From positions 30,368-94,367 of the IMG/VR virus record IMGVR_UViG_3300036885_000228: a stretch of DNA of 64,000 nucleotides, one strand, 5' to 3'. The stretch is from a virus (taxonomy: Duplodnaviria > Heunggongvirae > Uroviricota > Caudoviricetes). Shown piece after piece: positions 17,899 to 58,738 of the stretch (positions are counted from its first letter, which is position 1; each line of letters begins with the position of its first letter). The notes beneath the pieces are model-generated. The model made no database searches. It was given only the letters and a program-made list of their open reading frames with translations, and was not told the origin of the DNA. The position numbers and the translations under genes are program-made.

Positions 17899-18053
17899 TG
17901 TAGTTTACAAACTTTAATAAATATGTTATAATCAATTTATGGTTAAAAGATGTTAACTTGTTCAGTATCTTGAATTTTTTATTTATAAATGTTTATAAAA
18001 ATTCATTGTTAATAACTTCTAGATTAACCTAATATTAAACAAAATATCACCTA

Positions 18054-18082
18054 TTTACAAACCTTTACAAATGGTATATAAT
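18054..18082 (+). promoter_or_regulatory. Sigma70-like promoter TTTACA-N17-TATAAT inside 130-bp conserved element, copy A
   Basis: TTTACA 18054-18059, 17-nt spacer, TATAAT 18077-18082. Element A spans about 17949-18083. Confidence 0.6.
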
Positions 18083-18210
18083 GATTATAGGTGGTTGGAA
18101 AGAGGATAGTTCATTACAATTGAATAAACTTACAAACTTAAAAAAAATAACGATTCTTTCAATAGCAGAAAATTAAATTTTCTTCCTCTGAAAGAACAAC
18201 TCTAAAAAAT

Positions 18211-18417
18211 ATGAAACTTTATACTTTTACAGACAAAAATGGAGAAATCATTACACAAGTAAGAGCTAATAATCATGATGAAGCATTAAAAACTTTATCA
18301 ACAACTAAAAAAGTAAATTTCATGACTGATTTTTACTCTGAAAATCTTTGTCCGATTTGTGAAGGAATTGAAGATACAGATGGAAGATGTGGATGTACAA
18401 ATAAGGACTCAAATTAA
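18211..18417 (+). CDS. Small early protein (Cys-rich C-terminus)
   Basis: 68-aa ORF. CPICEG..CGC motif. Confidence 0.4.
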   Translation: MKLYTFTDKNGEIITQVRANNHDEALKTLSTTKKVNFMTDFYSENLCPICEGIEDTDGRCGCTNKDSN

Positions 18418-18483
18418 AACTTTTATAATCATAAATTTCTCTGGTTAACTGGAAACAACTTAACCAGAAGTGAACAGATAAAT

Positions 18484-18888
18484 ATGTACAAAGAACTCAA
18501 AGCAATGTACAATGAAGAATTCAAGAAAGTTTTAGCAAAATATAAATCACAGGGAGAAGGAGTAGTTGATATCGCAGTAGGAAGTGGAGGAGTAGATAAG
18601 GTCTTCCATGAAAAAGAATTTTTCTGGTGCGGATTCAATACTTTCGTCATTGATAGAGATCCAAAAAACAAACCATTAATCAAACAACTTGAAGATGATG
18701 GAGCCACAGTTGAAAGATTTCATAATTGGTTTGGTTATAAAGGAAAATGGACTGGATATGAAGTAAGACTCTCAAACAATAATGATGGAAATGGATATTA
18801 TACAATTGAAGAAGAAGCACTTGGAAATATCTCAAAACATCTTAATTCTCTTGGCTATTCAACTCAAGTTTATAGCCGATTGGACTAA
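18484..18888 (+). CDS. Hypothetical early protein
   Basis: 134-aa ORF. Confidence 0.4.
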   Translation: MYKELKAMYNEEFKKVLAKYKSQGEGVVDIAVGSGGVDKVFHEKEFFWCGFNTFVIDRDPKNKPLIKQLEDDGATVERFHNWFGYKGKWTGYEVRLSNNNDGNGYYTIEEEALGNISKHLNSLGYSTQVYSRLD

Positions 18889-18916
18889 GTATTATAAATT
18901 AAATTAAAATAATTAT

Positions 18917-19135
18917 ATGACAAAAGAATATCATTTTAAGTCAACAAGAGGAAATGATCAAGAATATCTTATACGGAGAGCAATTGAAAATCAAAAGCAT
19001 TTCGTAATTGAAGTCTACAATGGAGGAAAATCGTTTCCAGCAATTATCAGTGGACGTTACTCGTCTCTTAAAAAAGCAAAAGATGCAATGGGGTTACATA
19101 ATACAAATGGAATAATCCCTTGGGGAAACATCTAA
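18917..19135 (+). CDS. Hypothetical early protein
   Basis: 72-aa ORF. Confidence 0.35.
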   Translation: MTKEYHFKSTRGNDQEYLIRRAIENQKHFVIEVYNGGKSFPAIISGRYSSLKKAKDAMGLHNTNGIIPWGNI

Positions 19136-19171
19136 GAATAATCTAATTAAAATAACGTAATCAAAAATTGT

Positions 19172-19486
19172 ATGAAAATGTATAATGCAACAGGAATTGT
19201 TTGGGGCAAATATTGGGGAGGTGGAGAAGGTGGATATGCCGCAACCAAAATTTACGGTGAAACTTCTAAAGAAAAGCTTTTAGCAAAAGCAAATCAAATG
19301 TTAAAAGATGGTTCTTTAGACTCTGGAATGGGATATGAAGAATTGATTGGTGCAAAGTTAGAGATTGAAGAAGTTGACCAAAGGACGTTTGATAAGAAAT
19401 TATTTACTCATAGAGAATTTGAGACCGAATATATCGGTAAACTTTCTAATGAGACAATTGATTTCTTAGAAACGATAGATTTATAA
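19172..19486 (+). CDS. Hypothetical early protein
   Basis: 104-aa ORF. Confidence 0.4.
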   Translation: MKMYNATGIVWGKYWGGGEGGYAATKIYGETSKEKLLAKANQMLKDGSLDSGMGYEELIGAKLEIEEVDQRTFDKKLFTHREFETEYIGKLSNETIDFLETIDL

Positions 19487-19592
19487 TTCAAAATAATAAC
19501 GGTTTGCCAGTGGCGGAGGATGACAAGCAGGTGGACGAGGTTATTCGTTATTTCCTTGTTCATCTCCTCCGCTGGTAGACTACAAAAATGTA

Positions 19593-19723
19593 TGACAATC
19601 AAAAAAGCAGAATTTATGGCCTATGAAGATGTAAGATTAAGTGGAGTCACAAACATGTTTGCAGTTACGACAGTTTGTGCTTTAACAGGATTATCAAAAG
19701 AAAAAGTTCTTGAGATAATGTAA
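19593..19723 (+). CDS. Small putative HTH DNA-binding protein (alternative start 19520 lies inside a GC-rich hairpin)
   Basis: MTIKKAEFMAYEDVRLSGVTNMFAVTTVCALTGLSKEKVLEIM. The C-terminal half looks like a helix-turn-helix. Confidence 0.35.
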
Positions 19724-19763
19724 CGGTATTCAGAATTAGAAACTAATTTTATCAAAAACTAAT

Positions 19764-19979
19764 ATGAAAAGTAAAAATGACATAAATCGAATGATTGAAA
19801 AAATCACGAAAGATAATCAACATGTATTGGATTGTGGTCCAGCGACAGTAGACATTAATGCTCCAAGAGCATTGATGCAATTAGCAACAACGGTGGCACT
19901 TGATAATTTATATTGGGTGTTAGGAAAAATAAAAAGACCAAGGTTCAGATGCGATGATAATAGTAAAATAAATTGTTAA
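19764..19979 (+). CDS. Hypothetical early protein
   Basis: 71-aa ORF. Confidence 0.35.
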   Translation: MKSKNDINRMIEKITKDNQHVLDCGPATVDINAPRALMQLATTVALDNLYWVLGKIKRPRFRCDDNSKINC

Positions 19980-19990
19980 ACTAAATTAAT

Positions 19991-20215
19991 ATGACTATAT
20001 ACGATAAAATTAGAGAGATTTCAGGAATGTCTATTTCTGGAATTGACGAAGATCAAAATATTGAATGGATTGGGACTGATGTTCAAATGAAGAAAGCCGA
20101 AGACATAATAGAAAAATATGATAATGGAGATTTAGATAGTGATGAAATTGAAGAAATTTGGGAAGCATTAGGAGAAGATTTACCTGAAGATAAAATAAAC
20201 TTACCAAATAACTAA
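19991..20215 (+). CDS. Hypothetical acidic early protein
   Basis: 74-aa ORF with a D/E-rich C-terminus. Confidence 0.35.
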   Translation: MTIYDKIREISGMSISGIDEDQNIEWIGTDVQMKKAEDIIEKYDNGDLDSDEIEEIWEALGEDLPEDKINLPNN

Positions 20216-20216
20216 T

Positions 20217-20486
20217 ATGAAACGTTTAGAGATAAGCCAAAAGGCTAGAACTGAAATAAAAGAAAAGTATTCTGAAGTATTAAAGTCAGATGATAAAGAA
20301 GTTTGGAAATCTGCAATTATGAAAATCAAAATTGAACTTGCAGAAATTGATGAAAAGAAAAAGACTCTTGCAATTGAAGATACAAAAATACTTTCTAGTT
20401 TTAGAAGGGGATATATACTTAATAAAGTATTATATATCATACTTGATAAATTTGGAAAAAAATTCATCAAGCCAAAATATTTATGA
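20217..20486 (+). CDS. Hypothetical early protein
   Basis: 89-aa ORF. Its start overlaps the previous stop (TAATATGA). Confidence 0.35.
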   Translation: MKRLEISQKARTEIKEKYSEVLKSDDKEVWKSAIMKIKIELAEIDEKKKTLAIEDTKILSSFRRGYILNKVLYIILDKFGKKFIKPKYL

Positions 20487-20668
20487 AACCAGATTGCTAC
20501 AATTGTAAATTTAGACGAGATATTCCAGGTGATGCACATTCTTGTTGTTCTAATTCAAAAGCAAAGGTCAAAGGTGATAGTTATGGAAAGGGTCAAGGTT
20601 GGTTTTTGTGGCCTTTTAATTTTGATCCTACCTGGCTTGAAAGTTGTAATGGTTTTGAAAAGAAATAA
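20483..20668 (+). CDS. Small Cys-rich protein
   Basis: 61 aa. CYNCKF..HSCC. Confidence 0.35.
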   Translation: MKPDCYNCKFRRDIPGDAHSCCSNSKAKVKGDSYGKGQGWFLWPFNFDPTWLESCNGFEKK

Positions 20669-20686
20669 TTAAGTAATTATATTTGT

Positions 20687-21061
20687 ATGAATATTGTACA
20701 TGTTGAAGAAGTTCTAACTGAACAAGAATTACTTTCATTAGATTCAAAATGCTTAAAAGACAGTGAAGTCATTTGTCTGAATTGTGGTAATAAAGCTGAC
20801 AAAATTCAAGATGATGCTAAAATGAATAAATGGAAATGTAGTTTTTGTGGATCTGGTGGATTGATGAAACATTATCGTTCTGAATTCAAAGAGCAAGTCG
20901 ACAAAGGTAAACTATCATTACGAGTAGGTTCAATCATCCAGAACAATCTGGGAGGTTTAGGGATTATCGACATGATCGTTGGTGAGATGATATATTTTCA
21001 TAATGGTGGTGCATCAGGAATGCATTCAATGTATTTAATTCGTAATGTAATAAAATTTTAA
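20687..21061 (+). CDS. Zinc-ribbon protein
   Basis: 124 aa. CLNCGN..x17..CSFCGSGG. Confidence 0.4.
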   Translation: MNIVHVEEVLTEQELLSLDSKCLKDSEVICLNCGNKADKIQDDAKMNKWKCSFCGSGGLMKHYRSEFKEQVDKGKLSLRVGSIIQNNLGGLGIIDMIVGEMIYFHNGGASGMHSMYLIRNVIKF

Positions 21062-21065
21062 ATTT

Positions 21066-21260
21066 ATGAATTATCAATTACTTTGGTTTGTACCTGCTTT
21101 ACTTATTTATCTTTTTATTTGGTATAAAGTTATTGAATCAGCAATTAAAGATTCTGATACTGATGCACTTAATAGTTGGATATTTCTGAACATTGTAATA
21201 GTGTCAACAACTTGTACACTTATTGGTATATTGAGTATATTCAAAATAATAAAATTTTAA
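21066..21260 (+). CDS. Small membrane protein
   Basis: 64 aa with two hydrophobic helices. Confidence 0.35.
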   Translation: MNYQLLWFVPALLIYLFIWYKVIESAIKDSDTDALNSWIFLNIVIVSTTCTLIGILSIFKIIKF

Positions 21261-21264
21261 AAAT

Positions 21265-25213: not shown

Positions 25214-25495
25214 TTTGTAAATGTTAGAAAGAATGACATCTGGATGACATCTAGAAAGGAAAACTAGACAAAATATAGGAATATATGACTGACATATAGA
25301 CCAATATCTGACATCAATCTGATGACAACAGAATAATACTGAATCTTAACTTATAGAATATATGATACTAGAATCCGTTAAACTAGAAAGTTATTAACTT
25401 TTCATGAACACTTGAATTTTTTTTATTTATAAATGTTTGTAAGATTCACTGTTAATAACTTCTAGACTTGTTTAATATTAAACAAAAATTCACCT

Positions 25496-25524
25496 ATTTA
25501 CAAACACTTATAAATTTGTTATAA
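25496..25524 (+). promoter_or_regulatory. Promoter TTTACA-N17-TATAAT inside conserved element copy B
   Basis: TTTACA 25496-25501, TATAAT 25519-25524. Element B spans about 25387-25527. It points into an ORF-free region. Confidence 0.6.
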
Positions 25525-25530
25525 TGAATC

Positions 25531-26360
25531 TATACAGTTAAATAAGTTCATTGATACTTTCTACTGGTCAAACCTTTCTAGGGTGATTGGTAAAAGTTTT
25601 GAAAATACAGAGAGTACAACATAGAGATAGAAACCATTTTTCGGCTTAGTCCGAAAACCAGTCTCATAGTTGTACTTTCCACTCTTTTCAGAACATTACA
25701 ATATTAGTCTATTAATTGTCATTCTTAATTGCTGGAGATTATGTCAAAAGCTCCCTGGTAAGTCCTGCAGGACTGAACGGGCAAGGGTATGACATCATGC
25801 ATATCATTTAAGAATGTCAACTAGTAGATTAAGTACTTTTCAAATGTGGGATTTTGAGGCGTTGTTGATAGGTTGCTTATGCGTAAAAGACTGTTAAGTT
25901 CAAACTCAAACTTATCAGTTGCCTATCTGTAAAAAGGAGAAAGTAAGAATAGGGGATACCTTATTTTTATATAGCTCCACCGCAAAAGGATTTAGCGACA
26001 AAGAGTTTGAGTCGCCAGTAGGGGCACCCGAGAAAATCTCTCAAACCCTCACATTTGCAAGGTACAGGTAAGTTCTTTAATGGAAGAAAAAATACAGTGA
26101 AACCCAACTCAAGATGAGCGGTTCTCGCTAATCAAAGTTGCAACTAAGATTAGTAAACTGTACATAAAAAATCTAACTCCCCGTCAAAGGAGAGAGATGA
26201 TACACCTTCCTGAAATGCCTTTAAAATAATCCTGCTTTTTTTAGCAATAGGTTTGGCTGTCAATTGGGACCTATCATCTATGTGGAACGTTAAGGCGGTC
26301 GGCATGGTTTTGAAAAATTAAATCAACGACTTAGCTGTTCTATTCTTCCATTAAAGAATT
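25531..26360 (+). ncRNA. Candidate large structured noncoding RNA (unclassified)
   Basis: ~0.85 kb with no ORF of 60 aa or more on either strand, in a genome that is otherwise about 95% coding. Visibly GC-richer than its flanks. Many local hairpins (e.g. gtcctgcaggac, agcgacaaagagtttgagtcgc, tgacat..atgtca, gtttgc/gcaaac-like). A strong promoter lies immediately upstream. Confidence 0.4.
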
Positions 26361-26382
26361 TATCAAAATCAAAACAAAAATT

Positions 26383-27712: not shown

Positions 27713-27741
27713 TTTACAAATATTTATAAATATGTTATAAT
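27713..27741 (+). promoter_or_regulatory. Promoter TTTACA-N17-TATAAT
   Basis: TTTACA 27713-27718, TATAAT 27736-27741. Upstream of the ParB-like gene. Confidence 0.55.
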
Positions 27742-27804: not shown

Positions 27805-28689
27805 ATGTGTGCAAAACTCGTGTATGAAAACAGTATCAAGATTGTACCATTGGAAAAACTTTTTCCAGACCCAAAACAACCAAGAAAAGAGTTCTTTGAG
27901 AAAGAAATGAAGAAATTACAAATGTCAATCAAAGACAGAGGAATCATGACTCCAATAGTTGTGGAGAAAATGAAAGATGGAAAGTATCTAATTGTCGATG
28001 GTGAAAGACGTTATCGGAGTGCTAAATTTCTTGGAATGAAAGAAGTTCCAATAAATATTATCACTGAGGACTTGGATGATGTAGACAGAAACATTGTCAG
28101 ATTTCAATTGCAGGAAACACATTCGCAATGGACTGTAATGGAAAAAGCTCAAGCAATTCTATTGCTTAAACAAGCATTAGATTTAACTACAAAAGATTTA
28201 GCAAAAGCTATTGGTATTCCAGAAGCAACTGTTTCACAGTATTTAATGCTTTTAGATTTTTCACCAAGAGTTAAAAGTATTCTCATTGAAATGAATATGA
28301 GAATGTCGTATATTCTTGCTTTATCTTCAATGCATAAAGTTTTTCCGGTTGAAATTTCAAAGAAATATCCAGATTACGTTGAATTAGCAATTGACAAGTT
28401 CAAAAATGGTTATATCAAAACTTACAAAGACTACATTGATATCCGTCGGTTGATTTTAGCAGGTGAATATAAATACGTCGAAAAATGGTTAACTAATAAG
28501 ACGTATACTTCTGATCAGGCAATGAATGATTCGACTTTCAATTTAAGTGTAAGAGTTGAGAAAGCAATACATAAAGCAAAAGGTGTAATTCGTGAACTTT
28601 CTGTTATTCATAAGAATAAATTGAAAATTTCTGAATTTGACATTTTAGTTTTGACGAAATTAAGAGACGAAATAAACCAACTAATTTAG
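27805..28689 (+). CDS. ParB/Sulfiredoxin-domain protein (ParB-like nuclease/partition)
   Basis: ..MTPIVVEKMKDGKYLIVDGERRYRSAKFLG.. carries the classic ParB N-terminal GERR motif. Confidence 0.7.
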   Translation: MCAKLVYENSIKIVPLEKLFPDPKQPRKEFFEKEMKKLQMSIKDRGIMTPIVVEKMKDGKYLIVDGERRYRSAKFLGMKEVPINIITEDLDDVDRNIVRFQLQETHSQWTVMEKAQAILLLKQALDLTTKDLAKAIGIPEATVSQYLMLLDFSPRVKSILIEMNMRMSYILALSSMHKVFPVEISKKYPDYVELAIDKFKNGYIKTYKDYIDIRRLILAGEYKYVEKWLTNKTYTSDQAMNDSTFNLSVRVEKAIHKAKGVIRELSVIHKNKLKISEFDILVLTKLRDEINQLI

Positions 28690-30947: not shown

Positions 30948-30978
30948 AGTTATTAACTTTTCATGAACAGTTTATCAG

Positions 30979-31007
30979 TTTACATCAATTCAAAAGTTTG
31001 TTATAAT
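30979..31007 (+). promoter_or_regulatory. Promoter TTTACA-N17-TATAAT
   Basis: TTTACA 30979-30984, TATAAT 31002-31007. Preceded by the GTTATTAACTTTTCATGAAC box. Confidence 0.55.
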
Positions 31008-31323: not shown

Positions 31324-32298
31324 ATGTTGTATTTTTATTCAAAAGTAAACATTAATAATATGCGATGCAAAATTAAGATGCAATTCGATCCAGAAATTGC
31401 AAAAGATATTGGAGTAGAAGAAGCAATAATGTATTCAAATGTTGAATTCTGGTGTGAACATAATAAAGCAAACAATACAAATTTTTATGATGGACGTTAT
31501 TGGATGTATAACACAATTGATGCTTTTGTTCAATTATTTCCATTTTGGACAGTAAAACAAATTCGACGTATTTTAAATAACTTAGAGAATAAGAAGTACA
31601 TCAAAACTGGTAATTACAACACTGTGAAATTTGATCAAACGATCTGGTATTCAATTGATATCCCTGATTTGTCAGTTCCGACAAATGCAACTGCCCAAAT
31701 CGGTACGCTGCAACTGCCCAAATGGGCAAATGGAACTGCCCAAATGGACAATGCTATACCAGATAATAAACCATATGTTAATCTTATGATTGGCGAAGAC
31801 AAGCTTCACCGTATAGATTTAAAATTAGAAAGTACCAAAATTGACAAGAAAACTAAACCTAATGGTAGTAAATCTGACAAAAACAAGATTCTTGGAACTC
31901 AGGCAGATGAAGTTCTAACATACTTTTTTGATGAATATTTGCAAATTTTCAAAATTAAACCAACAATTACCAACTTTGGTAGATTTAATAAAGCAACTCA
32001 AAAATACCTCAAACTTTATAATCTAGAGAAAATGAAAGAATTTGTGGATGCATATTTCAGTTTAACTGAGAAATATTACAAAGACAATGGTTATTCGGTT
32101 AATATTTTTTTAACAGATAACGTGATTACTCGACTGAATTCTAATTATTCAAAAAAATTGACATCAGAAGAAGAAAATCGACTAATGCAGATTGATAATG
32201 ATCGACAATTTAGACGGTATATTCGAACTAATCCAACTAGTGAGACAGCAAGGAGATATTTAGAAGAACATAATGGTTTATTACCAAATATTGATTAA
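31324..32298 (+). CDS. Putative replication initiation / replisome organiser protein
   Basis: 324-aa ORF directly upstream of the primase-helicase. Its direct repeats GCAACTGCCCAAATCGG / ACTGCCCAAATGG at 31690-31745 lie inside the gene and are iteron-like. Confidence 0.4.
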   Translation: MLYFYSKVNINNMRCKIKMQFDPEIAKDIGVEEAIMYSNVEFWCEHNKANNTNFYDGRYWMYNTIDAFVQLFPFWTVKQIRRILNNLENKKYIKTGNYNTVKFDQTIWYSIDIPDLSVPTNATAQIGTLQLPKWANGTAQMDNAIPDNKPYVNLMIGEDKLHRIDLKLESTKIDKKTKPNGSKSDKNKILGTQADEVLTYFFDEYLQIFKIKPTITNFGRFNKATQKYLKLYNLEKMKEFVDAYFSLTEKYYKDNGYSVNIFLTDNVITRLNSNYSKKLTSEEENRLMQIDNDRQFRRYIRTNPTSETARRYLEEHNGLLPNID

Positions 32299-33894: not shown

Positions 33895-33927
33895 GAAGTT
33901 GTTAACTTTTCATTAACAAGTAGATAG

Positions 33928-33956
33928 TTTACAAATGTTGACAAATATGATAAGAT
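33928..33956 (+). promoter_or_regulatory. Promoter TTTACA-N17-TAAGAT
   Basis: TTTACA 33928-33933. The -10 is the TAAGAT variant at 33951-33956. Preceded by the GTTGTTAACTTTTCATTAACAAG box. Confidence 0.45.
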
Positions 33957-41639: not shown

Positions 41640-42055
41640 GTAAGAAATTAAGAAAGAATGGGACATTTGTAGTTTCAGTTGCTGCAGAATATGACATGAC
41701 TGGAAATGAAGACATTTTAATTGTTGCAGTTGACAGTATAAAAATAAGAAAGAACATAGCAAAGAAGTTAATCAAAAATGATCATTGGCCAAAGTACATC
41801 ATTGATGGTAGAATGGGATTGGAACAAATGGAAATATATACATATAGATCCCCAATGACCTGGTTGAATGATTTACCAGATGAAAATAATGTAGACCATG
41901 AACCTTGTACTGCTAAAGCAATTGCATATAATACATCAGTAATTGGTGGATTGATATCTAGCATCATTAAAAAGATAATAAAAGGTGAGAAATTTCCACA
42001 GAGTATCATATTTGATTTGATTACATATACAGCAATTATTCAGTCTGAATCTTAA
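41396..42055 (+). CDS. E1-like activating enzyme (ThiF/MoeB/HesA family)
   Basis: N-terminal RYLRQ. ..ISIVGCGGIGSWTGYVLSKLGIANITLFDFDIVESKNLASQFF.. fits the Rossmann GxGxxG plus D.D.V..SNL.RQ-like motif. Confidence 0.7.
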   Translation: MEIKDQDRYLRQSDVFTPPDSKSTQISIVGCGGIGSWTGYVLSKLGIANITLFDFDIVESKNLASQFFDTTDIGKNKAIALGKKLRKNGTFVVSVAAEYDMTGNEDILIVAVDSIKIRKNIAKKLIKNDHWPKYIIDGRMGLEQMEIYTYRSPMTWLNDLPDENNVDHEPCTAKAIAYNTSVIGGLISSIIKKIIKGEKFPQSIIFDLITYTAIIQSES

Positions 42056-42128
42056 TATTTATAAATGTTTGTAAAATTGAAGATTTCATTTAGTTGAATT
42101 TGTTTAATATTAGATAAGAACTGGCCTA

Positions 42129-42157
42129 TTTACAAACCTTTACAAATGTGTTATAAT
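42129..42157 (+). promoter_or_regulatory. Promoter TTTACA-N17-TATAAT inside conserved element copy C
   Basis: TTTACA 42129-42134, TATAAT 42152-42157. Element C spans about 42055-42168. Confidence 0.6.
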
Positions 42158-42203
42158 GATTATAGGTAGTTCATTGACAACTGAATAGAGCTTATAAAAA
42201 TGT

Positions 42204-45364: not shown

Positions 45365-45411
45365 TGTTATATTTAAATGAAGTTGTTAACTTTTCATTAA
45401 CATTTTTATAG

Positions 45412-45440
45412 TTTACAATAGTATTCAAATTTGATATAAT
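45412..45440 (+). promoter_or_regulatory. Promoter TTTACA-N17-TATAAT
   Basis: TTTACA 45412-45417, TATAAT 45435-45440. Preceded by the GTTGTTAACTTTTCATTAACA box. Confidence 0.55.
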
Positions 45441-52153: not shown

Positions 52154-52190
52154 TTGAAAGTTGTTAACAAGTTATGAACAGTTTGACCTA

Positions 52191-52219
52191 TTTACAAATA
52201 TTTATAAATATGATATAAT
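52191..52219 (+). promoter_or_regulatory. Promoter TTTACA-N17-TATAAT
   Basis: TTTACA 52191-52196, TATAAT 52214-52219. Preceded by the GTTGTTAACAAGTTATGAAC box. Confidence 0.55.
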
Positions 52220-55294: not shown

Positions 55295-55431
55295 GTGAAT
55301 AGAAGTGACATCAGAGTTACTTCTCATTGTAAGAGAGTGGTCATTGGTTCGAGTCCAATTTTTAGTCGAAAGGCTAAAATAGCTCAGTTGGTAGAGCACT
55401 TAAATTTCTCTGATAAATTTTCTCTATTCAC
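55295..55431 (+). ncRNA. Y-RNA-like RNA with tRNA-like module (T arm plus GAAA-capped acceptor-like stem plus D arm), closed by long terminal helices
   Basis: T arm attgg-ttcgagt-ccaat (55343-55359). Stem ttttagtc / GAAA loop / ggctaaaa (55360-55379). D arm gctc-agttggta-gagc (55382-55397). No anticodon arm follows. Terminal helix gtgaataga(55295-55303)/tctattcac(55423-55431) and inner helix atcagag(55310-55316)/ctctgat(55408-55414). Lies 440 nt downstream of the Ro60 gene. Confidence 0.55.
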
Positions 55432-55449
55432 TTATAAGTAAATAATCAA

Positions 55450-56280
55450 ATGAAGTATAATCGAGACAAGACATTGAAAACAACAAAATTAGATAATGAT
55501 GCATATTTTACACCTATTGAAATATCAAAAAGATTAATAGATAAGACATTTGAAATTATAGGTATTGATAATATTACAGAGAGTATAGACCCAAGTGCCG
55601 GAAATGGAAGTTTTAGTAAACAAATTAGGAATTGTACTGCTTATGACATTGAGTCTAATGATGAGACAATTATTAAACAGGATTTTTTACAATTACAATT
55701 AGATTATAAAAAGGGAAGATTATTCATTACGAATCCACCATTTGGTCCACAAAATTTTTTATCGGTTAAATTTTATTCAAAATGTTGTGATGAAGGTGAT
55801 TATATTGCATTTATTCAACCAATAAGTCAATATAAAAATTCTTTTCAGTTGTATAAATTTGATTTAATTTATAGTGAAGATTTAGGAATTCAAAACTATT
55901 CAGGAAGAAATATTCATTGTTGTTTTAATATTTATCGTCGCCCATTGTTTGGGATATTAAATAAACAAAAAAGATGGAAATTTGATGATTTTAAGATTTT
56001 TGAAAGACGTAATGTTAAGGGGAATATTATACAATTTAAAAGTGATTACGATTTTAGAATATGTGGTTGGGGTGCTAAATGTGGAAAGATATTAGATGAT
56101 ACTGAACTTTATGCTAAAGAATACGCAGTTACAATATATAATCAAGACGTTAAAGATAAGATATTTAATGCAATAAAAACTATTGACTTAAAGAAAGATT
56201 TCAATATTGTTAGTACTCCAAATCTTTCAATGCAAATGCTATATAGATATTTACAAAATAAGATTCCAGAATTAAAATGA
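55450..56280 (+). CDS. N6-adenine DNA methyltransferase
   Basis: Motif I ..IDPSAGNGSFSK... Motif IV ..LFITNPPFGP.. ((D/N)PP(F/Y)). Confidence 0.7.
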   Translation: MKYNRDKTLKTTKLDNDAYFTPIEISKRLIDKTFEIIGIDNITESIDPSAGNGSFSKQIRNCTAYDIESNDETIIKQDFLQLQLDYKKGRLFITNPPFGPQNFLSVKFYSKCCDEGDYIAFIQPISQYKNSFQLYKFDLIYSEDLGIQNYSGRNIHCCFNIYRRPLFGILNKQKRWKFDDFKIFERRNVKGNIIQFKSDYDFRICGWGAKCGKILDDTELYAKEYAVTIYNQDVKDKIFNAIKTIDLKKDFNIVSTPNLSMQMLYRYLQNKIPELK

Positions 56281-56657
56281 ATCCAATTCCAGGAAAATTG
56301 AAGCAAAAGATGAATGAAGATGAATATTACAAAGTTTGTTGTTTATCAGGAAGGAAAAATTGTGTAATAAATTGGCACCACACATACACATATTCAGGAA
56401 AACAAATTAATGAAGAATGGTGCATAATGCCAATATGGGAAGAATTACATAATTGGGCATTTAGTAAATTAGCAGTTCATAATAATAAAGAGACAATGGA
56501 ATTCGTAAAGTATCTTTCATTATTAAGAGCAAATATTTCTGACTTAATCAAAAGGATGCCGAAAAAAAACTGGATGCAAGAGTTTAAAGTATTAGAGAAA
56601 CGATTTAAAGACAAAAAGGAGGATATGTTAAAAATTTATCAAAATCAAAATGTCTGA
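56277..56657 (+). CDS. Hypothetical Cys/His-rich protein
   Basis: 126 aa with ..YKVCCLSGRKNCVINWHHTY... Start overlaps the upstream stop (ATGA). Confidence 0.4.
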   Translation: MNPIPGKLKQKMNEDEYYKVCCLSGRKNCVINWHHTYTYSGKQINEEWCIMPIWEELHNWAFSKLAVHNNKETMEFVKYLSLLRANISDLIKRMPKKNWMQEFKVLEKRFKDKKEDMLKIYQNQNV

Positions 56658-56982
56658 AACACCAATTGTGTCTAGCATAAAAAAGTATCTAGATATTTTA
56701 GAAAAACAAGGAAAACTTGTCTATCAACGAAACAATTCGGGAGCAATGCCAATACAATCAAAAGGAGGAACGAGATTTATTCGATTCGGGAAGACAGGAA
56801 GCCCTGATTTCTACGTGTTTGTAAAACACGGTATGGTATTATCGGTTGAAGTTAAAGATTCAAAAGGCAAGCAAAGTGAAGGACAGATAGAATTTCAGAA
56901 AAAGTTAGAGGCACTTGATCATAGCTATTTTGTAGTTCGTTCGTTGGACGATATAGTCAAAATTTTAAAGAAATTTATATGA
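56650..56982 (+). CDS. VRR-NUC domain nuclease (PD-(D/E)xK)
   Basis: ..GSPDFYVFVKHGMVLSVEVKDSKGKQSEGQIEFQ.. has the D...E-V-K catalytic arrangement typical of VRR-NUC. Confidence 0.55.
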   Translation: MSETPIVSSIKKYLDILEKQGKLVYQRNNSGAMPIQSKGGTRFIRFGKTGSPDFYVFVKHGMVLSVEVKDSKGKQSEGQIEFQKKLEALDHSYFVVRSLDDIVKILKKFI

Positions 56983-57045
56983 GACCAATTAAAAATTATT
57001 ATTACTGGTGTAATTATTTTAACTGCTTTTTTAGCAGGATTTTTT

Positions 57046-57130
57046 GCATTAGTAGACGACTATGGAAGTCGGCTTGATTGTAGATCAAGCATCCGTAAGG
57101 GTCATAAGAGTTCGATTCTCTTCTAATGCA
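57046..57130 (+). tRNA. tRNA-Tyr(GUA), type II
   Basis: Acceptor gcattag/ctaatgc. Anticodon arm cttga-ttgtaga-tcaag (anticodon gta). Long variable arm atcc-gtaa-gggt. T arm aagag-ttcgatt-ctctt. Confidence 0.75.
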
Positions 57131-57135
57131 CAATT

Positions 57136-57207
57136 GGAAGAGTAGCATAACGGTCAATGCAATGGTTTGAAGCACCATAGAAGAAAGTTCAATTCTTTCC
57201 TCTTCCA
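57136..57207 (+). tRNA. tRNA-Phe(GAA)
   Basis: Acceptor ggaagag/ctcttcc. D arm gcat-aacggtca-atgc. Anticodon arm atggt-ttgaagc-accat. T arm gaaag-ttcaatt-ctttc. Confidence 0.8.
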
Positions 57208-57215
57208 CTATAAAT

Positions 57216-57286
57216 GCTATAGTAGGCAAGAGGCTAGCCACGAGATTGCAAATCTTGAAACATGGGTTCGACTCCCATCTATAGCT
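57216..57286 (+). tRNA. tRNA-Cys(GCA)
   Basis: Acceptor gctatag/ctatagc. Anticodon arm cgaga-ttgcaaa-tcttg (one G-U pair). T arm atggg-ttcgact-cccat. The D stem is only 3 bp. Confidence 0.65.
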
Positions 57287-57291
57287 CAAAT

Positions 57292-57364
57292 GCAGGGGCA
57301 TGTTCCAAGGCTGGCGGTTGCGACTCCAAATCGTGACGGAAGAGTTCGATTCTCTTACCCTGTG
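57292..57364 (+). tRNA. tRNA-like gene with CCA (Trp) anticodon loop; imperfect cloverleaf
   Basis: T arm aagag-ttcgatt-ctctt. Anticodon-like arm tgcga-ctccaaa-tcgtg. Acceptor gcagggg/accctgt has one mismatch. No convincing D stem, so it may be degenerate. Confidence 0.35.
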
Positions 57365-57373
57365 CTATTAGGT

Positions 57374-57446
57374 TGGCAGGTATCATAACTGGTAATGATT
57401 TCGACTGTTAATCGAAAATATACTGGTTCGAATCCAGTCTTGCCAG
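57374..57446 (+). tRNA. tRNA-Asn(GUU)
   Basis: Acceptor tggcagg/cttgcca (U1-A72, as in many bacterial tRNA-Asn). D arm tcat-aactggta-atga. Anticodon arm ttcga-ctgttaa-tcgaa. T arm actgg-ttcgaat-ccagt. Confidence 0.8.
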
Positions 57447-57476
57447 CAAATATTACACTGAGAATTTAACATTATT

Positions 57477-57547
57477 GCCGGTGTAATTCAAAGGTTAGAA
57501 TGGCAGTTCTGTAAACTGCTCATAGGGTTCGAATCCTCTCACCGGCT
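57477..57547 (+). tRNA. tRNA-like gene with UGU (Thr) anticodon; atypical
   Basis: Perfect acceptor gccggtg/caccggc. D arm attc-aaaggtta-gaat. Anticodon arm gcagt-tctgtaa-actgc with C at position 33. The T stem is weak (taggg/cctct). Confidence 0.45.
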
Positions 57548-57554
57548 CACATTA

Positions 57555-57725
57555 TGCAAAATTATCTTAAAAGAGAAATATTTTTAACTCGATTTACTAA
57601 AGATACAACAATCAAATGTCCGAGTTGTCAAAGAGTTCTTGATTATCCAGATTTTGTTTGCGAATCGTGCAAGACGCAAATCGTAATCAAATTCAAACCA
57701 GAAGACAAATTGTGGGAAAGATAAG
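57555..57725 (+). CDS. Small zinc-ribbon protein (57 aa, below cutoff)
   Basis: MQNYLKREIFLTRFTKDTTIKCPSCQRVLDYPDFVCESCKTQIVIKFKPEDKLWER. Confidence 0.3.
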
Positions 57726-57925
57726 ATGTTTCAGATGATCGATTGTATTGGGCATATAAGAATATATGTACATTGACAATTTTATTCACTGAGGTCATTC
57801 TGGTGACAACAGCAAATAAGCAAGATGAGGTGGTATGGGCCTGGGGTCTGGAGTCGGATTAGTAAGACATCGCATTTGCATTGCGAAAATAACGGGTGCA
57901 ATTCCCGTCAGATCCACATCTCATT

Positions 57926-58522
57926 ATGCATTATATAATCTATAAAACTACAAATCTTGTCAATGGAAACTTTTATATTGGATATCATTCAACGAATAAT
58001 TTAGATGATAAGTATTTAGGTTCTGGTAAATTGTTAAGATTAGCAATTAATAAATACAATATTGATAAATTTAAAAAAGAAATATTGTTTATATTTGATA
58101 CAAAAGAAGAAGCATTATTGAAAGAAAGAGAAGTTGTCAATCCTGATTTTATTAAACGTAATGATGTATATAATGTCAAGTACGGTGGAGAGGGTGGTTG
58201 GGAGCATACATGGTATGATAAAAGACGATATGATGCATGGAGAAAAGTAAATAAAGGATGGTCTATGACATTTGAAAAAAGAAGTAAGTTATTTTTAGGA
58301 AAGAATAATGGAATGTATGGAAAAAAACAAAGTTCAGCAATGAAAGAACGGATGAAGTTAAATCAAATACTTGATAAAGGAATTTTAGCACAAAGATTAA
58401 ATGATTATAATACTATCGAAAAGAAATATGGATGGAAAACGAAATTGGCAAGAAAATGGAATATTTCGCATACTCAAGTTTGTCGATTTATTAAGAAATA
58501 TGTCAAGTACGAAAAAACGTAG
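57926..58522 (+). CDS. GIY-YIG homing endonuclease
   Basis: MHYIIYKTTNLVNGNFYIGYHSTNN...YLGSG is a GIY...YIG module. The ORF-track start 57896 adds 10 aa of GC-rich leader. Confidence 0.75.
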   Translation: MHYIIYKTTNLVNGNFYIGYHSTNNLDDKYLGSGKLLRLAINKYNIDKFKKEILFIFDTKEEALLKEREVVNPDFIKRNDVYNVKYGGEGGWEHTWYDKRRYDAWRKVNKGWSMTFEKRSKLFLGKNNGMYGKKQSSAMKERMKLNQILDKGILAQRLNDYNTIEKKYGWKTKLARKWNISHTQVCRFIKKYVKYEKT

Positions 58523-58575
58523 AATTAGAAAGCACACTGAGGAGATAATGCGTTCGAGTCCCATCGAGTCTACAG

Positions 58576-58598
58576 AATAGATTATCAATCTATTTTTT
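58576..58598 (+). terminator. Weak AT-rich hairpin plus T-run
   Basis: aatagat-tatca-atctatt followed by tttt. Confidence 0.3.
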
Positions 58599-58671
58599 AT
58601 TTGTAAATGTTTATAAAAATTCACTGTTAACAACTTCTAGATTTACCTAATATTAAATAAAATATTACCTA

Positions 58672-58700
58672 TTTACAAACATTAACAAATGTGTTATAAT
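58672..58700 (+). promoter_or_regulatory. Promoter TTTACA-N17-TATAAT inside conserved element copy D
   Basis: TTTACA 58672-58677, TATAAT 58695-58700. Element D spans about 58595-58703. Confidence 0.6.
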
Positions 58701-58738
58701 GAATATAATTAAACATATAATTTAATAATCAAGAATGT

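What the first reader, a model, noticed from the sequence alone, without database searches (positions are those of the whole stretch)
17949..58703. Reiterated early promoter system: nine TTTACA-N17-TATAAT promoters, four embedded in an ~130-bp conserved element, each preceded by a GTTAAC-containing box
Copies at 18054, 25496, 27713, 30979, 33928, 42129, 45412, 52191 and 58672 share an exact -35 TTTACA and a 17-nt spacer that ends ..tgt or ..tga. Seven of the nine have an exact TATAAT -10; 33951 has TAAGAT instead. The TG at spacer positions 15-16 forms an extended -10 (TGnTATAAT). Four copies (near 17949-18083, 25387-25527, 42055-42168, 58595-58703) extend into a longer shared sequence (TTTTTATTTATAAATGTTT(A/G)TAAAA-TTCA(C/T)TGTTAA(T/C)AACTTCTAGA-...TTAATATTAAA(C/T)AAAA-T(A/T)(T/C)ACCTATTTACAAAC...). 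About 35-60 nt upstream of most -35 boxes is a partially palindromic box (GTTGTTAACTTTTCATTAACA, GTTATTAACTTTTCATGAACA, GTTGTTAACAAGTTATGAACA). This looks like an operator or activator site, or an UP-like element. The system partitions the early region into short units and could mark recombination hot-spots for module exchange. The sigma70-type consensus also constrains the host, because it is not the Bacteroidetes -33/-7 type, despite the DUF3127-like gene.
Basis: seen in the sequence. Interest (0 to 1): 0.55.

Follow-up and report, generated by a model that had tools for sequence, protein, structure and literature searches.

The report
Reiterated strong phage promoters with upstream box
An uncultured ~94-kb phage drives its non-structural genes from eleven near-identical strong sigma70-type promoters, an ordinary phage strategy, but half carry a conserved 21-bp upstream box also found in unrelated phages, and the promoter type clashes with the phage's Bacteroidia-like translation signals.

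Summary
The motif is real. TTTACA-N17-TATAAT occurs 9 times (0.13 expected), always on the coding strand and always intergenic. 33928 (TAAGAT) and 62594 (TATACA) are weaker members, making 11. Relatives sharing only 45-60% protein identity keep sigma70-type sites at the same gene junctions, and conservation of the four ~115-nt long copies stops at the predicted start site. These are best read as strong promoters of the T4 early "UP/-35/TGn/-10" kind, splitting 46 kb of non-structural genes into units of about 2-8 kb.

The GTTAAC box is two tandem 11-bp GTTRTTAACA units (6 copies, 0.01 expected). It ends 9-10 nt before the -35 at five promoters, where the long copies have A/T-rich UP-like DNA. 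It is not a stable RNA hairpin. The same box-promoter composite occurs in otherwise unrelated uncultured phages, so it is probably a protein-binding site.

Open puzzle: the start-codon context matches cultured Bacteroidota phages, but the Bacteroidota TAnnTTTG promoter motif is not enriched.

Verdict: a new variant of a known kind, of moderate interest. Side find: an 848-nt highly structured RNA candidate (z = -10).

The parts
17904..17932 (+). Promoter P1 (plain class): TTTACA-N17-TATAAT with TATGt extended -10. It lies 15 nt after terminator hairpin 17872-17889 and in tandem with P2.
   Evidence: (41.8 bits)
17974..18089 (+). Long element 1. It comprises a conserved A/T-rich upstream region, an inverted box unit at 18007-18016, promoter P2 (-35 at 18054-18059, -10 at 18077-18082, no TGn), and a degenerate box at about 17949-17967. 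It heads the ORFan/early block 18211-25213.
   Evidence: (D8)
25390..25410 (+). Distal box copy GTTATTAACTTTTCATGAACA, about 87 nt upstream of the -35 of P3, at the 5' edge of long element 2.
25417..25532 (+). Long element 2, with an inverted unit at 25450-25459 and promoter P3 (-35 at 25497-25502, -10 at 25520-25525). It is followed by an 848-nt ORF-free, highly structured stretch.
27713..27741 (+). Promoter P4 (plain class), 63 nt upstream of the ParB-like gene. L140 has an equivalent site before its ParB gene.
30949..31007 (+). Box (30949-30969) + 9 nt + promoter P5 (30979-31007). It drives a 286-nt structured leader and then the replication-initiator and primase-helicase genes.
33898..33956 (+). 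Box (33898-33918) + 9 nt + promoter P6 (TTTACA-N17-TAAGAT), immediately after the primase-helicase gene. The position is conserved in L122, L123 and L140, and L140 also has the box there.
42049..42164 (+). Long element 3 (the most diverged copy, with no box unit), with promoter P7 (42129-42157).
45382..45440 (+). Box (45382-45402) + 9 nt + promoter P8 (45412-45440). The ATG at 45448 is 7 nt after the -10, so a leaderless mRNA is predicted. It heads the dTMP kinase / ThyX / PolB operon.
52160..52219 (+). Box (52160-52180) + 10 nt + promoter P9 (52191-52219), downstream of PolB. L122 and L123 have a sigma70-type site after PolB.
58592..58707 (+). Long element 4, with an inverted unit at 58625-58634 and promoter P10 (58672-58700). 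It is preceded by a weak hairpin plus T-run at about 58574-58597, after the GIY-YIG gene.
62564..62622 (+). Box with a perfect palindrome TGTTAAC-N5-GTTAACA (62564-62584) + 9 nt + degenerate promoter P11 (TATACA-N17-TGaTATAAT).
27805..28689 (+). ParB_N + HTH_ParB protein, the only Pfam-supported HTH protein in 16.6-64 kb. Candidate box binder.
31324..32298 (+). Replication initiation protein / DnaD-like helicase loader. Candidate box binder, and its own promoter (P5) carries a box.
25533..26380 (+). Transcript predicted from P3: an ORF-free candidate large structured RNA.
17872..17889 (+). Intrinsic terminator closing the structural module, just upstream of P1.

Best explanation
The elements are eleven co-oriented promoters of the canonical sigma70/sigmaA type: -35 TTTACA, a 17-bp spacer, a TRTGn extended -10, and -10 TATAAT. 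They drive the whole non-structural half of an uncultured ~94-kb lytic-type phage. That half holds ORFans, an RNA-repair set, replication and nucleotide-metabolism operons, tRNAs, and at least one large non-coding RNA. The promoters are read by an RNA polymerase holoenzyme with canonical primary-sigma specificity. By default that is the host's, since no sigma or RNAP gene lies in 16.6-64 kb.

There are three architectures:
1. Four 'long' copies carry about 95 nt of conserved A/T-rich upstream DNA, UP-like at -60 to -40, and are inferred to be the strongest, factor-independent promoters.
2. Five 'boxed' copies have, in exactly that -66 to -45 zone, two tandem 11-bp GTTRTTAACA units. These are inferred to bind a sequence-specific DNA-binding protein that touches or competes with the polymerase alpha-CTD. 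That would put the replication and nucleotide operons under common control, either class-I-type activation or repression.
3. Two copies are plain.

Shown: the motif statistics, strand and position, positional conservation in relatives, the break in conservation at the predicted +1, the fixed box-to-promoter distance, and the recurrence of the composite in other phages.

Inferred: promoter activity, timing, the identity of the polymerase or sigma, and the identity and sign of action of the box-binding protein.
For: - Motif statistics: 9 exact sites against 0.13 expected, all on the + strand. A PWM separates 10 sites from everything else. Loose sigma70-like matches are at chance level, so only this family stands out.
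- Position: all sites are intergenic, 7-316 nt upstream of the next ORF.
- Consensus quality: -35 5/6, -10 6/6 in 10 of 11, spacer always 17, TGn in 10 of 11.
- Positional conservation in relatives: a sigma70-type site follows primase-helicase in the window, L122, L123 and L140; follows PolB in L122 and L123 (two genes further on in the window); and precedes ParB in the window and L140.
- Lineage enrichment: 10 against 0.65 (window), 4 against 0.25 (L122), 3 against 0.05 (L140).
- Long-copy conservation runs from about -125 to -10 +8 nt and then stops.
- The promoter half resembles intergenic promoters of Staphylococcus and Bacillus phages and the mapped Cp-1 PL7 promoter.
- Box: 6 copies against 0.01 expected, 9-10 nt from the -35, and not a consistent hairpin.
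- The same composite occurs in L125 (twice), L126, L129, L130, L131 and L140.
- The full 10-bp unit precedes 8 of 50 distinct TTAACA-N9-promoter hits in IMG/VR, against a 2% background.
- Boxed promoters head replication genes in the window (initiator and primase-helicase; PolB operon) and in L126 (DnaD-like organizer).
- T4 early promoters are a described precedent for UP/-35/TGn/-10 promoters with extra consensus regions (PMC2988021).
Against: - No transcription data exist; activity and start sites are predictions.
- Translation signals are Bacteroidia-like (SD 3/68, A-3/A-6, T-1, TAATTA leaders). The primary sigma of Bacteroidia does not use TTGACA/TATAAT (PMC6847099). If the host is a Bacteroidia member, host RNAP should not read these sites.
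- 30 kb of the contig, which could encode a sigma factor or an RNAP, was not available.
- The spacer (AAAT.TG) is as conserved as the hexamers. That is unusual for sigma70 promoters and may partly reflect recent duplication.
- No candidate box binder is shared by all composite-bearing fragments.
- Contigs with ParB homologues L136-L139 lack the box.
- The initiators of the window and L140 are not detectably similar by BLASTP.
Confidence: 0.65

Rival explanations
1. The phage infects a Bacteroidia-type host whose primary sigma cannot read these sites. The motif is then read by a phage-specified factor: a sigma or RNAP encoded in the unseen 30 kb, a virion-delivered enzyme, or a re-specified host RNAP recruited through the GTTRTTAACA/TTAACA box. 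On this view the promoters are a phage-private, not host-type, system and not necessarily 'early'.
For: - SD cores precede 3/68 genes (below the 13.5% background), with A at -6 and -3 and T at -1.
- The same profile, with TAATTA leaders, occurs in Flavobacterium phage 11b and Cellulophaga phi38:1 but not in pelagiphage HTVC010P or SD-rich phages.
- Bacteroidia RNAP uses TTTG/TAnnTTTG and does not express E. coli-type promoters (PMC6847099).
- Contigs with the box composite are mostly SD-poor.
- Both genome hits to the composite pattern are Bacteroidota MAGs.
- The spacer is unusually conserved.
Against: - No sigma, RNAP or appropriator gene was found by Pfam or PHROGs in 16.6-64 kb.
- Two cultured Bacteroidota phages show no such promoters, so there is no precedent.
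- The hexamers are the textbook host-type consensus. L122 uses TTGACT/TTGACC, even closer to canonical.
- The two genome hits lack a -10 and look like unrelated operators.
- An SD-poor lineage with a canonical sigma70 cannot be excluded.
Confidence: 0.2
2. The repeats are primarily PeSL-like mobile regulatory cassettes. Their conservation is maintained by, and serves, homologous recombination that shuffles gene modules within and between phages; promoter function is secondary.
For: - Four copies, 63-90% identical over about 115 nt, are dispersed over 40 kb.
- The first genes downstream of the conserved promoter junctions differ between the window, L122 and L123.
- Near-identical box-promoter composites occur in phages sharing almost no genes.
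- Homing endonuclease genes sit next to two elements.
- PeSLs are documented in T4-type phages (PMC2839356, PMC4122927).
Against: - The defining stable stem-loop terminator is absent. The box folds at -0.7 to -8.2 kcal/mol, and 3 of 6 copies fold no better than shuffles.
- Only two promoters follow a terminator-like hairpin, and there are none on the + strand in 37-57 kb.
- The elements also head core replication operons, not only ORFans.
- No recombination junction or mini-circle evidence is available.
- The second sample (L135) is 99.99% identical, so no variants are visible.
Confidence: 0.15
3. The box is an iteron/operator for the phage replication initiator (or a parS/OB-like site for the ParB-like protein). 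Its dispersal at promoters couples transcription of the replication operons to initiator or ParB occupancy. This would resemble Rep autoregulation in iteron plasmids, or KorB/OB in RK2 and SopB sites in N15.
For: - The box consists of tandem 11-bp units, each containing a palindrome.
- The initiator gene's own promoter carries a box.
- L126's composite directly precedes a DnaD-like replisome organizer.
- L140 has two box-like palindromes, TATTAAC-CCTAS-GGTTAAC, inside its initiator gene and a box after primase-helicase.
- The window and L140 share a 45%-identical ParB with an HTH.
- L136/L137, which have a ParB homologue, hold one variant palindrome, GTGTTAAT-N5-ATTAACAC.
Against: - There is no clustered iteron array or box inside the initiator gene in the window.
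- The initiators of the window and L140 are not similar by BLASTP.
- ParB-homologue contigs L138/L139 have no box, and L136/L137 have only a variant within a coding region.
- No ParA or KorA partner was found.
- Composite-bearing fragments L125, L129, L130, L131, L155, L174 and L182 show no ParB or initiator homologue in the DNA held.
Confidence: 0.2
4. The box is an RNA-level element: a terminator, attenuator or processing hairpin at the 3' end of the upstream transcript.
For: - It begins 0-17 nt after upstream stop codons.
- The 62564 copy is a perfect 7-5-7 palindrome (-8.2 kcal/mol, z = -3.5).
Against: - The pairings are inconsistent between copies. Energies are weak, with at most one G-C pair, and no regular U-run follows.
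- Variants break pairing instead of compensating: TATTAAC...ATGAACA gives 4 of 7 pairs.
- The loop sequence is conserved in four copies.
- The fixed distance is to the -35, not to the upstream stop codon.
Confidence: 0.04

Closest known systems
T4 (and T5-type) early promoters: 'über' UP/-35/TGn/-10 promoters (Hinton 2010, PMC2988021)
   Same: - Many near-identical copies of a very strong host-type promoter sit in the prereplicative region.
- All RNAP recognition elements are present at once (UP-like A/T tract, -35, TGn, -10).
- There is additional conserved sequence beyond the canonical elements.
- They serve to out-compete host promoters.
   Different: - The host and its polymerase are unknown here.
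- The -35 is TTTACA and the spacer is almost invariant.
- Half of the copies replace the UP-like segment by a specific 21-bp box.
- No Alt/Mod/AsiA/MotA-type factors were detected.
- No transcription data exist.
PeSL cassettes (promoter-early stem-loop) of T4-type phages (Arbiol et al. 2010, PMC2839356; Comeau et al. 2014, PMC4122927)
   Same: - Reiterated ~100-bp composite elements contain a sigma70-like early promoter and lie in intergenic positions.
- They are associated with variable small genes.
- They are proposed as recombination substrates for module shuffling.
   Different: - PeSLs are defined by a stable, usually G/C-rich stem-loop that terminates transcription. Here the palindromic box is A/T-rich, weak, and conserved in sequence rather than in pairing.
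- Most copies have no terminator.
- The elements also head core replication operons.
- No recombination products have been shown.
T4 middle promoters with a MotA box (PMC2988021)
   Same: A phage-specific DNA box at a fixed distance from a host-type -10/TGn marks the promoters of replication and nucleotide-metabolism genes and tRNAs.
   Different: - The MotA box replaces the -35 (centred at -30) and needs AsiA and MotA. Here the -35 is intact and the box lies at -66 to -45.
- No MotA or AsiA homologues were found.
Dispersed ParB-family operators at promoters: KorB-OB of RK2 and SopB centromere sites of phage-plasmid N15 (recalled from the literature; not checked here)
   Same: A ParB-family HTH protein is encoded next to one promoter, and palindromic sites are scattered at several promoters of the replicon.
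   Different: - No ParA or KorA partner was found.
- The sites are two tandem units at a fixed distance from the -35.
- Homologous ParB genes in other phage contigs are not accompanied by the box.
Iteron/Rep autoregulation and lambda O-ori iterons, and OmpR/PhoB-type tandem sites abutting the -35 (recalled from the literature)
   Same: - Tandem ~11-bp units lie one helical turn apart, immediately upstream of the -35.
- A replication-initiator gene lies under a boxed promoter.
- L140 has box-like palindromes inside its initiator gene.
   Different: - No clustered origin array is present in the window.
- The units are dispersed over 37 kb.
- No response-regulator-type protein was detected.

Membership tests
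sigma70/sigmaA-dependent promoter | -35 and -10 hexamers close to TTGACA/TATAAT, separated by 17 +/- 1 bp | tested here: met
   -35 5/6 at 10 sites and 4/6 at 62594. -10 6/6 at 10 of the 11 sites and 4/6 at 33928. The spacer is 17 at all 11.
sigma70/sigmaA-dependent promoter | Extended -10 (TGn; TRTG in low-GC Gram-positives) | tested here: met
   TGn at 10 of 11 sites, TRTG at 7 of 11.
sigma70/sigmaA-dependent promoter | Located upstream of, and co-oriented with, genes, and more frequent than chance | tested here: met
   All sites are on the + strand and intergenic. 9 found against 0.13 expected.
sigma70/sigmaA-dependent promoter | Transcription starts 5-9 nt downstream of the -10, and activity with the cognate holoenzyme | not testable with these tools
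   No RNA data. Indirect support only: long-element conservation stops at the predicted +1, and the positions are conserved in relatives.
sigma70/sigmaA-dependent promoter | The host has a primary sigma of canonical specificity | tested here: inconclusive
   The host is unknown. Translation signals resemble Bacteroidia, whose sigma differs. Promoter content resembles neither of the two Bacteroidota phages tested.
Bacteroidota -33/-7 promoter (TTTG / TAnnTTTG) | TAnnTTTG enriched in intergenic DNA upstream of genes | tested here: not met
   Window: 48 + strand hits against about 42 expected, with 6 in the 11% of the sequence that is intergenic. Control phage 11b: 16 of 36 hits in the 9% that is intergenic. 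The spacer octamer YAAATNTG matches all six key positions at only 1 of 10 sites.
PeSL cassette | Reiterated sigma70-like early promoter within a conserved ~100-bp element | tested here: met
   Four long copies and five boxed copies.
PeSL cassette | Stable stem-loop acting as a terminator or attenuator inside the cassette | tested here: not met
   The box folds at -0.7 to -8.2 kcal/mol, with inconsistent pairing and 3 of 6 copies no better than shuffles. Terminator-like hairpins precede only P1 and P10.
PeSL cassette | Recombination between copies (indels bounded by elements, mini-circles) | not testable with these tools
   Only suggestive: genes after the conserved promoter junctions vary in L122 and L123. 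L135 is identical to the window.
ParB/KorB-type operator system | ParB-family protein with an HTH encoded in the replicon | tested here: met
   27805-28689: ParB_N 1.7e-20, HTH_ParB 1e-6, and several ParB PHROGs.
ParB/KorB-type operator system | The operator co-occurs with the ParB homologue across genomes | tested here: inconclusive
   L140 has both. L136/L137 have only a variant palindrome and L138/L139 have none. The other composite-bearing fragments show no ParB in the DNA held.
Iteron / replication-initiator operator | Initiator gene present, with its promoter carrying the repeat | tested here: met
   31324-32298 matches phrog_11233 at 4e-32, and box 30949-30969 lies at its promoter. L126's composite precedes a DnaD-like organizer.
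Iteron / replication-initiator operator | Clustered array of repeats at an origin | tested here: not met
   The window's boxes are single 2-unit sites dispersed over 37 kb. Only L140 has two palindromes inside its initiator gene.
UP element | A/T-rich tract at -60 to -40 without conserved G/C positions | tested here: inconclusive
   The long copies carry TAATATTAAAYAAAA.. (74-87% A+T), consistent with an UP-like tract. The box does not fit, because it has conserved G and C positions.

The most novel reading that the evidence does not exclude
A group of uncultured phages (the window's lineage plus L125, L126, L129, L131, L140, L155, L182 and others) combines Bacteroidia-type, SD-independent translation signals with canonical sigma70-consensus promoters. 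These promoters carry a dedicated upstream GTTRTTAACA element at a fixed distance from the -35.

If the hosts really are Bacteroidia, whose own polymerase cannot use such promoters, these phages must bring or build a transcription specificity foreign to the host, with the box as its recruitment site. Alternatively, they reveal an unrecognised host lineage that pairs SD-blind ribosomes with a canonical sigma70.
Probability: 0.22. Interest if true: 0.75.

Novelty: new variant of a known kind. Interest (0 to 1): 0.45.

Why it matters
- For this phage, the elements give a transcription map: eleven units covering 46 kb. They separate a probably factor-independent class from a box-regulated class that heads the replication and nucleotide operons.
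- More generally, the GTTRTTAACA-N9-TTTACA composite is a compact, searchable signature shared by otherwise unrelated uncultured phages. It could define a regulon or a host group in metagenomes.
- The mismatch between translation signals (Bacteroidia-like) and promoter type (sigma70-like) can be tested directly with two holoenzymes. Either outcome is informative: it would refine sequence-based host prediction, or it would uncover a new way for phages of Bacteroidota to transcribe their genes.
- The promoters also point to non-coding products, an 848-nt structured RNA and a structured leader before the initiator gene, that would otherwise be overlooked.

Tried and rejected
1. Chance or low-complexity artefact. 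Rejected by shuffles and the PWM scan.
2. Close cultured relatives. None were found by megablast or by tblastn with PolB, primase-helicase, RNA ligase or the DUF3127-like protein.
3. Phage-encoded sigma, RNAP or regulators. Pfam on all ORFs in 16.6-64 kb and PHROGs on the early and replication part found only a ParB-like protein and a replication initiator.
4. Box as an RNA hairpin or terminator. Rejected.
5. Box as the Bacteroidetes LexA site. [quoted passage not shown]
6. Reading the conserved spacer as a Bacteroidota -7 element. A poor fit.
7. Shared regulator among composite-bearing loci. None was found in the stored fragments.
8. Host from genome contigs. There were two Bacteroidota MAG hits, but at operator-like sites without a -10.
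9. Host from endolysin homologues. The close ones are unnamed. The closest cellular one (L215, 43% GC) lacks the signatures.
10. L132, with 4-5 tandem GGTTGTTAACA units, lies in a 20% GC contig of unclear origin and was not used.
11. L135 is the same phage (99.99% identical), so it gives no information on microdiversity.
12. Rfam for the ORF-free regions. No family matched the 848-nt RNA or the 286-nt leader.

Full report
**Context**

The window is part of a 94,367-bp JGI metagenome contig; its PolB is P0001. It has about 31% G+C, and every gene is on the + strand.
- Positions 1-17.8 kb hold structural and tail-fibre-like genes full of 45-nt repeats.
- Positions 18-64 kb hold small ORFans and the following annotated genes.

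| Coordinates | Gene or feature |
|---|---|
| 21503-22801 | RNA ligase |
| 24347-25213 | PNKP |
| 27805-28689 | ParB-like protein |
| 31324-32298 | Replication initiator |
| 32299-33894 | Primase-helicase |
| 34356-35273 | Cas4-like exonuclease |
| 35206-36177 | DNA ligase |
| 47803-48849 | ThyX |
| 49358-51589 | Family-B DNA polymerase (PolB) |
| 53393-54856 | Ro60/TROVE protein |
| 55205-57917 | Seven tRNAs |
| 29113-29784, 52816-53313, 57896-58522 | Three homing-endonuclease-like genes |

No cultured phage is close. The same phage occurs in a second sample at 99.99% identity (L135).

Yes, with corrections.
- TTTACA-N17-TATAAT has 9 exact matches against 0.13 expected, all on the + strand.
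- The exact set is 17904, 18054, 25497, 27713, 30979, 42129, 45412, 52191, 58672.
- 62594 (TATACA-N17-TATAAT) is an eleventh member.
- A PWM built from ten sites scores them at 26-54 bits and scores nothing else at >=14 bits on either strand.
- Loose sigma70-like matches are at shuffle level (112 against 115 and 153 against 116), so only this family stands out.
- All sites are intergenic, 7-316 nt upstream of the next ORF.
- The extended consensus is ccTA-TTTACAAA-nn-TT-n-A-n-AAAT-n-TG-n-TATAAT-gaWt. Several spacer positions are as invariant as the hexamers.
- TGn is present at 10 of 11 sites and TRTG at 7 of 11.

**The long copies**

The four long copies (17974-18089, 25417-25532, 42049-42164, 58592-58707) are 63-90% identical. 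In alignment, conservation starts about 95 nt upstream of the -35 and stops about 8 nt after the -10, at the predicted start site. That pattern fits a promoter with an extended upstream region. It does not fit a transcribed or coding repeat. The -60 to -40 segment of these copies is A/T-rich (TAATATTAAAYAAAA; 74-87% A+T) and so UP-like.

**The box**

- TRTTAAC-N5-RTKAACA occurs at 6 sites on the + strand against 0.01 expected: 25390, 30949, 33898, 45382, 52160, 62564.
- Cleaner copies in other phages (GTTGTTAACAaGTTGTTAACA in L125) show that it is two tandem 11-bp units, GTTRTTAACAn. Each unit contains the palindrome TGTTAACA.
- At five promoters the box ends 9 nt before the -35 (10 nt at 52160). 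It therefore occupies about -66 to -45, exactly where the long copies have the UP-like tract.
- The sixth copy lies at the 5' edge of long element 2.
- Three long elements carry one inverted unit, TGTTAAYAAC, near -80 (6 exact units against 0.64 expected).
- As RNA the box is not a consistent hairpin. Energies are -0.7 to -8.2 kcal/mol, the pairings differ between copies, and 3 of 6 copies fold no better than shuffles. Its variants break pairing rather than compensate.
- The box is therefore conserved as DNA sequence, which points to a protein-binding site.

**Evidence from relatives**

The relatives were found through PolB and ParB homologues.

| Junction | Window | L122 (PolB 47%) | L123 (PolB 60%) | L140 (ParB 45%, syntenic) |
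|---|---|---|---|---|
| After primase-helicase | P6, 33928, with box | TTGACT-N17-TATAAT | TTTACA-type site | Tandem box (GTTATTAACAtGTTATTAACA-N10-TTTACA-N17-TACGAT) |
| After PolB | P9, 52191, two genes further on | TTGACC-N17-TATAAT | TTTACA-type site | - |
| Before ParB | P4, 27713 | - | - | TTTACA-N17-TATAAT |

- L140 also has three GTTGTTAACA-like units upstream of a promoter resembling the long element.
- Strict sigma70-type sites are enriched in the whole lineage: window 10 against 0.65, L122 4 against 0.25, L140 3 against 0.05.
- Promoter positions persist where the intergenic DNA cannot be aligned. This is the strongest computational evidence for function.

**The composite outside the lineage**

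- Exact-pattern scans found box-N9-TTTACA-N16/17-TATAAT in L125 (twice), L126, L129, L130 (Trout Bog lake) and L131. These loci share almost no proteins with the window.
- A relaxed scan fixed only TTAACA-N9-promoter. It returned 50 distinct sequences, of which 8 (16%) have GTTR just before TTAACA, against 2% for any TTAACA in the same loci.
- A 10-bp unit at a fixed distance from the -35 is thus a recurrent promoter architecture in uncultured phages.
- In cultured phages the promoter half resembles intergenic promoters of large Staphylococcus and Bacillus phages and the mapped Cp-1 PL7 promoter. Nothing matches the box half.

**Who reads the box?**

This is unresolved. Pfam and PHROGs found no sigma, RNAP, anti-sigma or classical repressor in 16.6-64 kb. 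There are three candidates.

1. The replication initiator (31324-32298).
   - For: its own promoter (P5) is boxed. L126's composite directly precedes a DnaD-like replisome organizer. L140 has two box-like palindromes, TATTAAC-CCTAS-GGTTAAC, inside its initiator gene.
   - Against: the initiators of the window and L140 are not similar by BLASTP, and the window has no clustered array.
2. The ParB-like HTH protein (27805-28689).
   - For: it is shared at 45% identity with L140.
   - Against: other contigs with equally similar ParB proteins lack the box. L138/L139 have none, and L136/L137 have only a variant palindrome inside a gene.
3. A host factor, or the polymerase itself.
   - For: the composite spreads across phages with no shared genes, and no homologue of candidates 1 or 2 is present in those fragments.
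   - Also, TTAACA, the core of each unit, is one base from TTGACA, as TTTACA is.

The published Bacteroidetes LexA motifs do not match the box.

**Comparison with known systems**

- The core is the classic strategy of large lytic phages. T4 early promoters are described as combining UP, -35, TGn and -10 elements with additional regions of consensus (PMC2988021).
- PeSL cassettes of T4-type phages (PMC2839356, PMC4122927) are the nearest named concept for reiterated promoter-containing elements. However, their defining stable terminator stem-loop is absent here. Only P1 (hairpin at 17872-17889) and P10 (weak hairpin at about 58574-58597) follow a terminator-like structure, and there are none on the + strand in 37-57 kb.
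- A role in module exchange remains possible. The first genes after the conserved junctions differ among the window, L122 and L123. It has not been shown.

**The host problem**

- Only 3 of 68 genes have an SD core, below the 13.5% background. A is most frequent at -6 (45/68) and -3 (42/68), and T at -1 occurs in 55/68.
- Bacteroidia lack SD, favour A at -3, -6, -12 and -13, and have a primary sigma that reads TTTG/TAnnTTTG, not TTGACA/TATAAT (PMC6847099).
- Control phages were measured in the same way.

| Genome | SD cores | T at -1 | TAATTA/AATTAA leaders | Intergenic TAnnTTTG | Strict sigma70-type sites |
|---|---|---|---|---|---|
| Window | 3/68 | 81% | 18-24% | Not enriched: 6 of 48 + strand hits in 11% of the sequence | 10 against 0.65 expected |
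| Flavobacterium phage 11b | 6/65 | 58% | 14-25% | Enriched: 16 of 36 + strand hits in 9% of the genome | None intergenic |
| Cellulophaga phi38:1 | - | - | 12-30% | - | 1 against 0.3 expected |
| Pelagiphage HTVC010P | 28/64 | - | 2-10% | - | - |
| SD-rich phages | - | - | 0% | - | - |

- Contigs carrying the box composite are mostly SD-poor as well.
- The translation signals therefore say Bacteroidia-like, while the promoters say canonical sigma70.
- Reading the conserved spacer octamer (YAAATNTG) as a -7 element fails: only 1 of 10 sites matches all six key positions.
- Two readings remain. Either the host is an SD-poor lineage with a canonical sigma70, or a Bacteroidia phage uses a non-host specificity. 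Attempts to name the host were inconclusive.

**What the promoters drive**

| Promoter(s) | Downstream |
|---|---|
| P1/P2 | ORFan / RNA-repair block |
| P3 | 848-nt ORF-free RNA |
| P4 | ParB block |
| P5 | 286-nt leader, then initiator and primase-helicase |
| P6 | Exonuclease / ligase block |
| P7 | Endolysin, Band7, Fic |
| P8 | dTMP kinase, ThyX, PolB; the ATG is 7 nt after the -10, so the mRNA is predicted to be leaderless |
| P9 | Ro60, Y RNA, tRNAs |
| P10, P11 | ORFans |

- The RNA downstream of P3 folds at -255.5 against -187 +/- 6.8 kcal/mol for shuffles (z = -10). It has no Rfam or BLAST match.
- The leader downstream of P5 has z = -3.1 and ends in a long hairpin plus a U-run.

**Verdict**

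The boxed sub-class and its recurrence in other phages are a real, undescribed variant. I rate it as a new variant of a known kind, interest 0.45. There is a 0.2-0.25 chance that the promoter/translation mismatch reflects something considerably more interesting.

Noticed in passing
window 25533-26380: An 848-nt ORF-free, GC-richer stretch lies directly downstream of long-element promoter P3. The predicted RNA fold is -255.5 kcal/mol against -187 +/- 6.8 for shuffles (z = -10.0). It has no Rfam family at E<=1 and no BLAST match in cultured phages. It is a candidate novel large structured ncRNA.
   Followed up: partly
window 31015-31300 (and L140 about 6090-6350): A 286-nt untranslated stretch lies between boxed promoter P5 and the replication-initiator gene. 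It is moderately structured (z = -3.1) and ends in a long hairpin plus U7, so it could be an sRNA, an attenuator or an origin transcript. L140 has an ORF-free leader of about 270 nt at the same position.
   Followed up: partly
window 53393-55449: The Ro60/TROVE gene is followed by tRNA-Gly (55205-55276) and a YrlA-like Y RNA hit at 55297-55432 (41.8 bits, E 8e-8, below the gathering score of 69). With RNA ligase (21503-22801) and PNKP (24347-25213), the phage carries an RNA repair and quality-control set.
   Followed up: partly
window 9915-9935, 25234-25325; 9880, 25353, 31081: A second intergenic motif family. TGACATC occurs 13 times on the + strand against about 2.7 expected, clustered in two intergenic regions. 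The 12-mer ATAGAATATATG occurs exactly three times. These could be an origin or iterons, or another promoter class.
   Followed up: partly
window, all gene starts; also L122, L123, L131, L140: The start-codon context is unusual: SD cores before 3/68 genes, T at -1 in 55/68, A peaks at -6 and -3, and TAATTA/AATTAA in 18-24% of leaders. Flavobacterium phage 11b and Cellulophaga phi38:1 share it; pelagiphage HTVC010P does not.
   Followed up: yes
window 45435-45450: The ATG of the dTMP-kinase-like gene (45448) lies 7 nt after the -10 of P8, so a leaderless mRNA is predicted. L122 has an ATG immediately after a TATAAT at 5911-5942.
   Followed up: no
window 18108-18120, 25545-25557, 42168-42180; L140 about 8860: The motif AGTTCATTrACAA lies 12-27 nt downstream of the -10 at three long-element promoters and at the L140 boxed promoter. 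GTTCAT is the reverse complement of the box half ATGAAC, so it may be a downstream operator half-site or a 5'-UTR element.
   Followed up: partly
window 1-5608 and 12849-16598: Giant tail-fibre-like ORFs (1181, 541 and 1249 aa) are built from 45-nt/42-nt (15/14-aa) repeats of the type F-T-x-D-G-x-V-K. A Gly-rich 9-nt repeat tract lies at 1679-2279.
   Followed up: no
window 29113-29784, 52816-53313, 57896-58522: There are three homing-endonuclease-like genes (DUF559/Vsr-like, HNH+NUMOD3, GIY-YIG). The GIY-YIG ORF abuts tRNA-Ala and lies just upstream of long element 4. A tRNA T-arm-like fragment (GTTCGAGTCCCATC) follows it at about 58550.
   Followed up: no
L132 745-800: A 20% GC contig of unknown origin has 4-5 perfect tandem GGTTGTTAACA units abutting TTTACA, upstream of a 648-aa ORF. 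The 11-bp unit matches the box, but the context is unrelated.
   Followed up: partly
L134 about 3513-3548 (Flavobacterium sp. MAG): A box-like palindrome, GTTATTAACAAATAATTAACA, lies in the divergent intergenic region next to a TetR-family regulator gene. This hints that such sequences can serve as TetR-type operators in Flavobacterium.
   Followed up: partly
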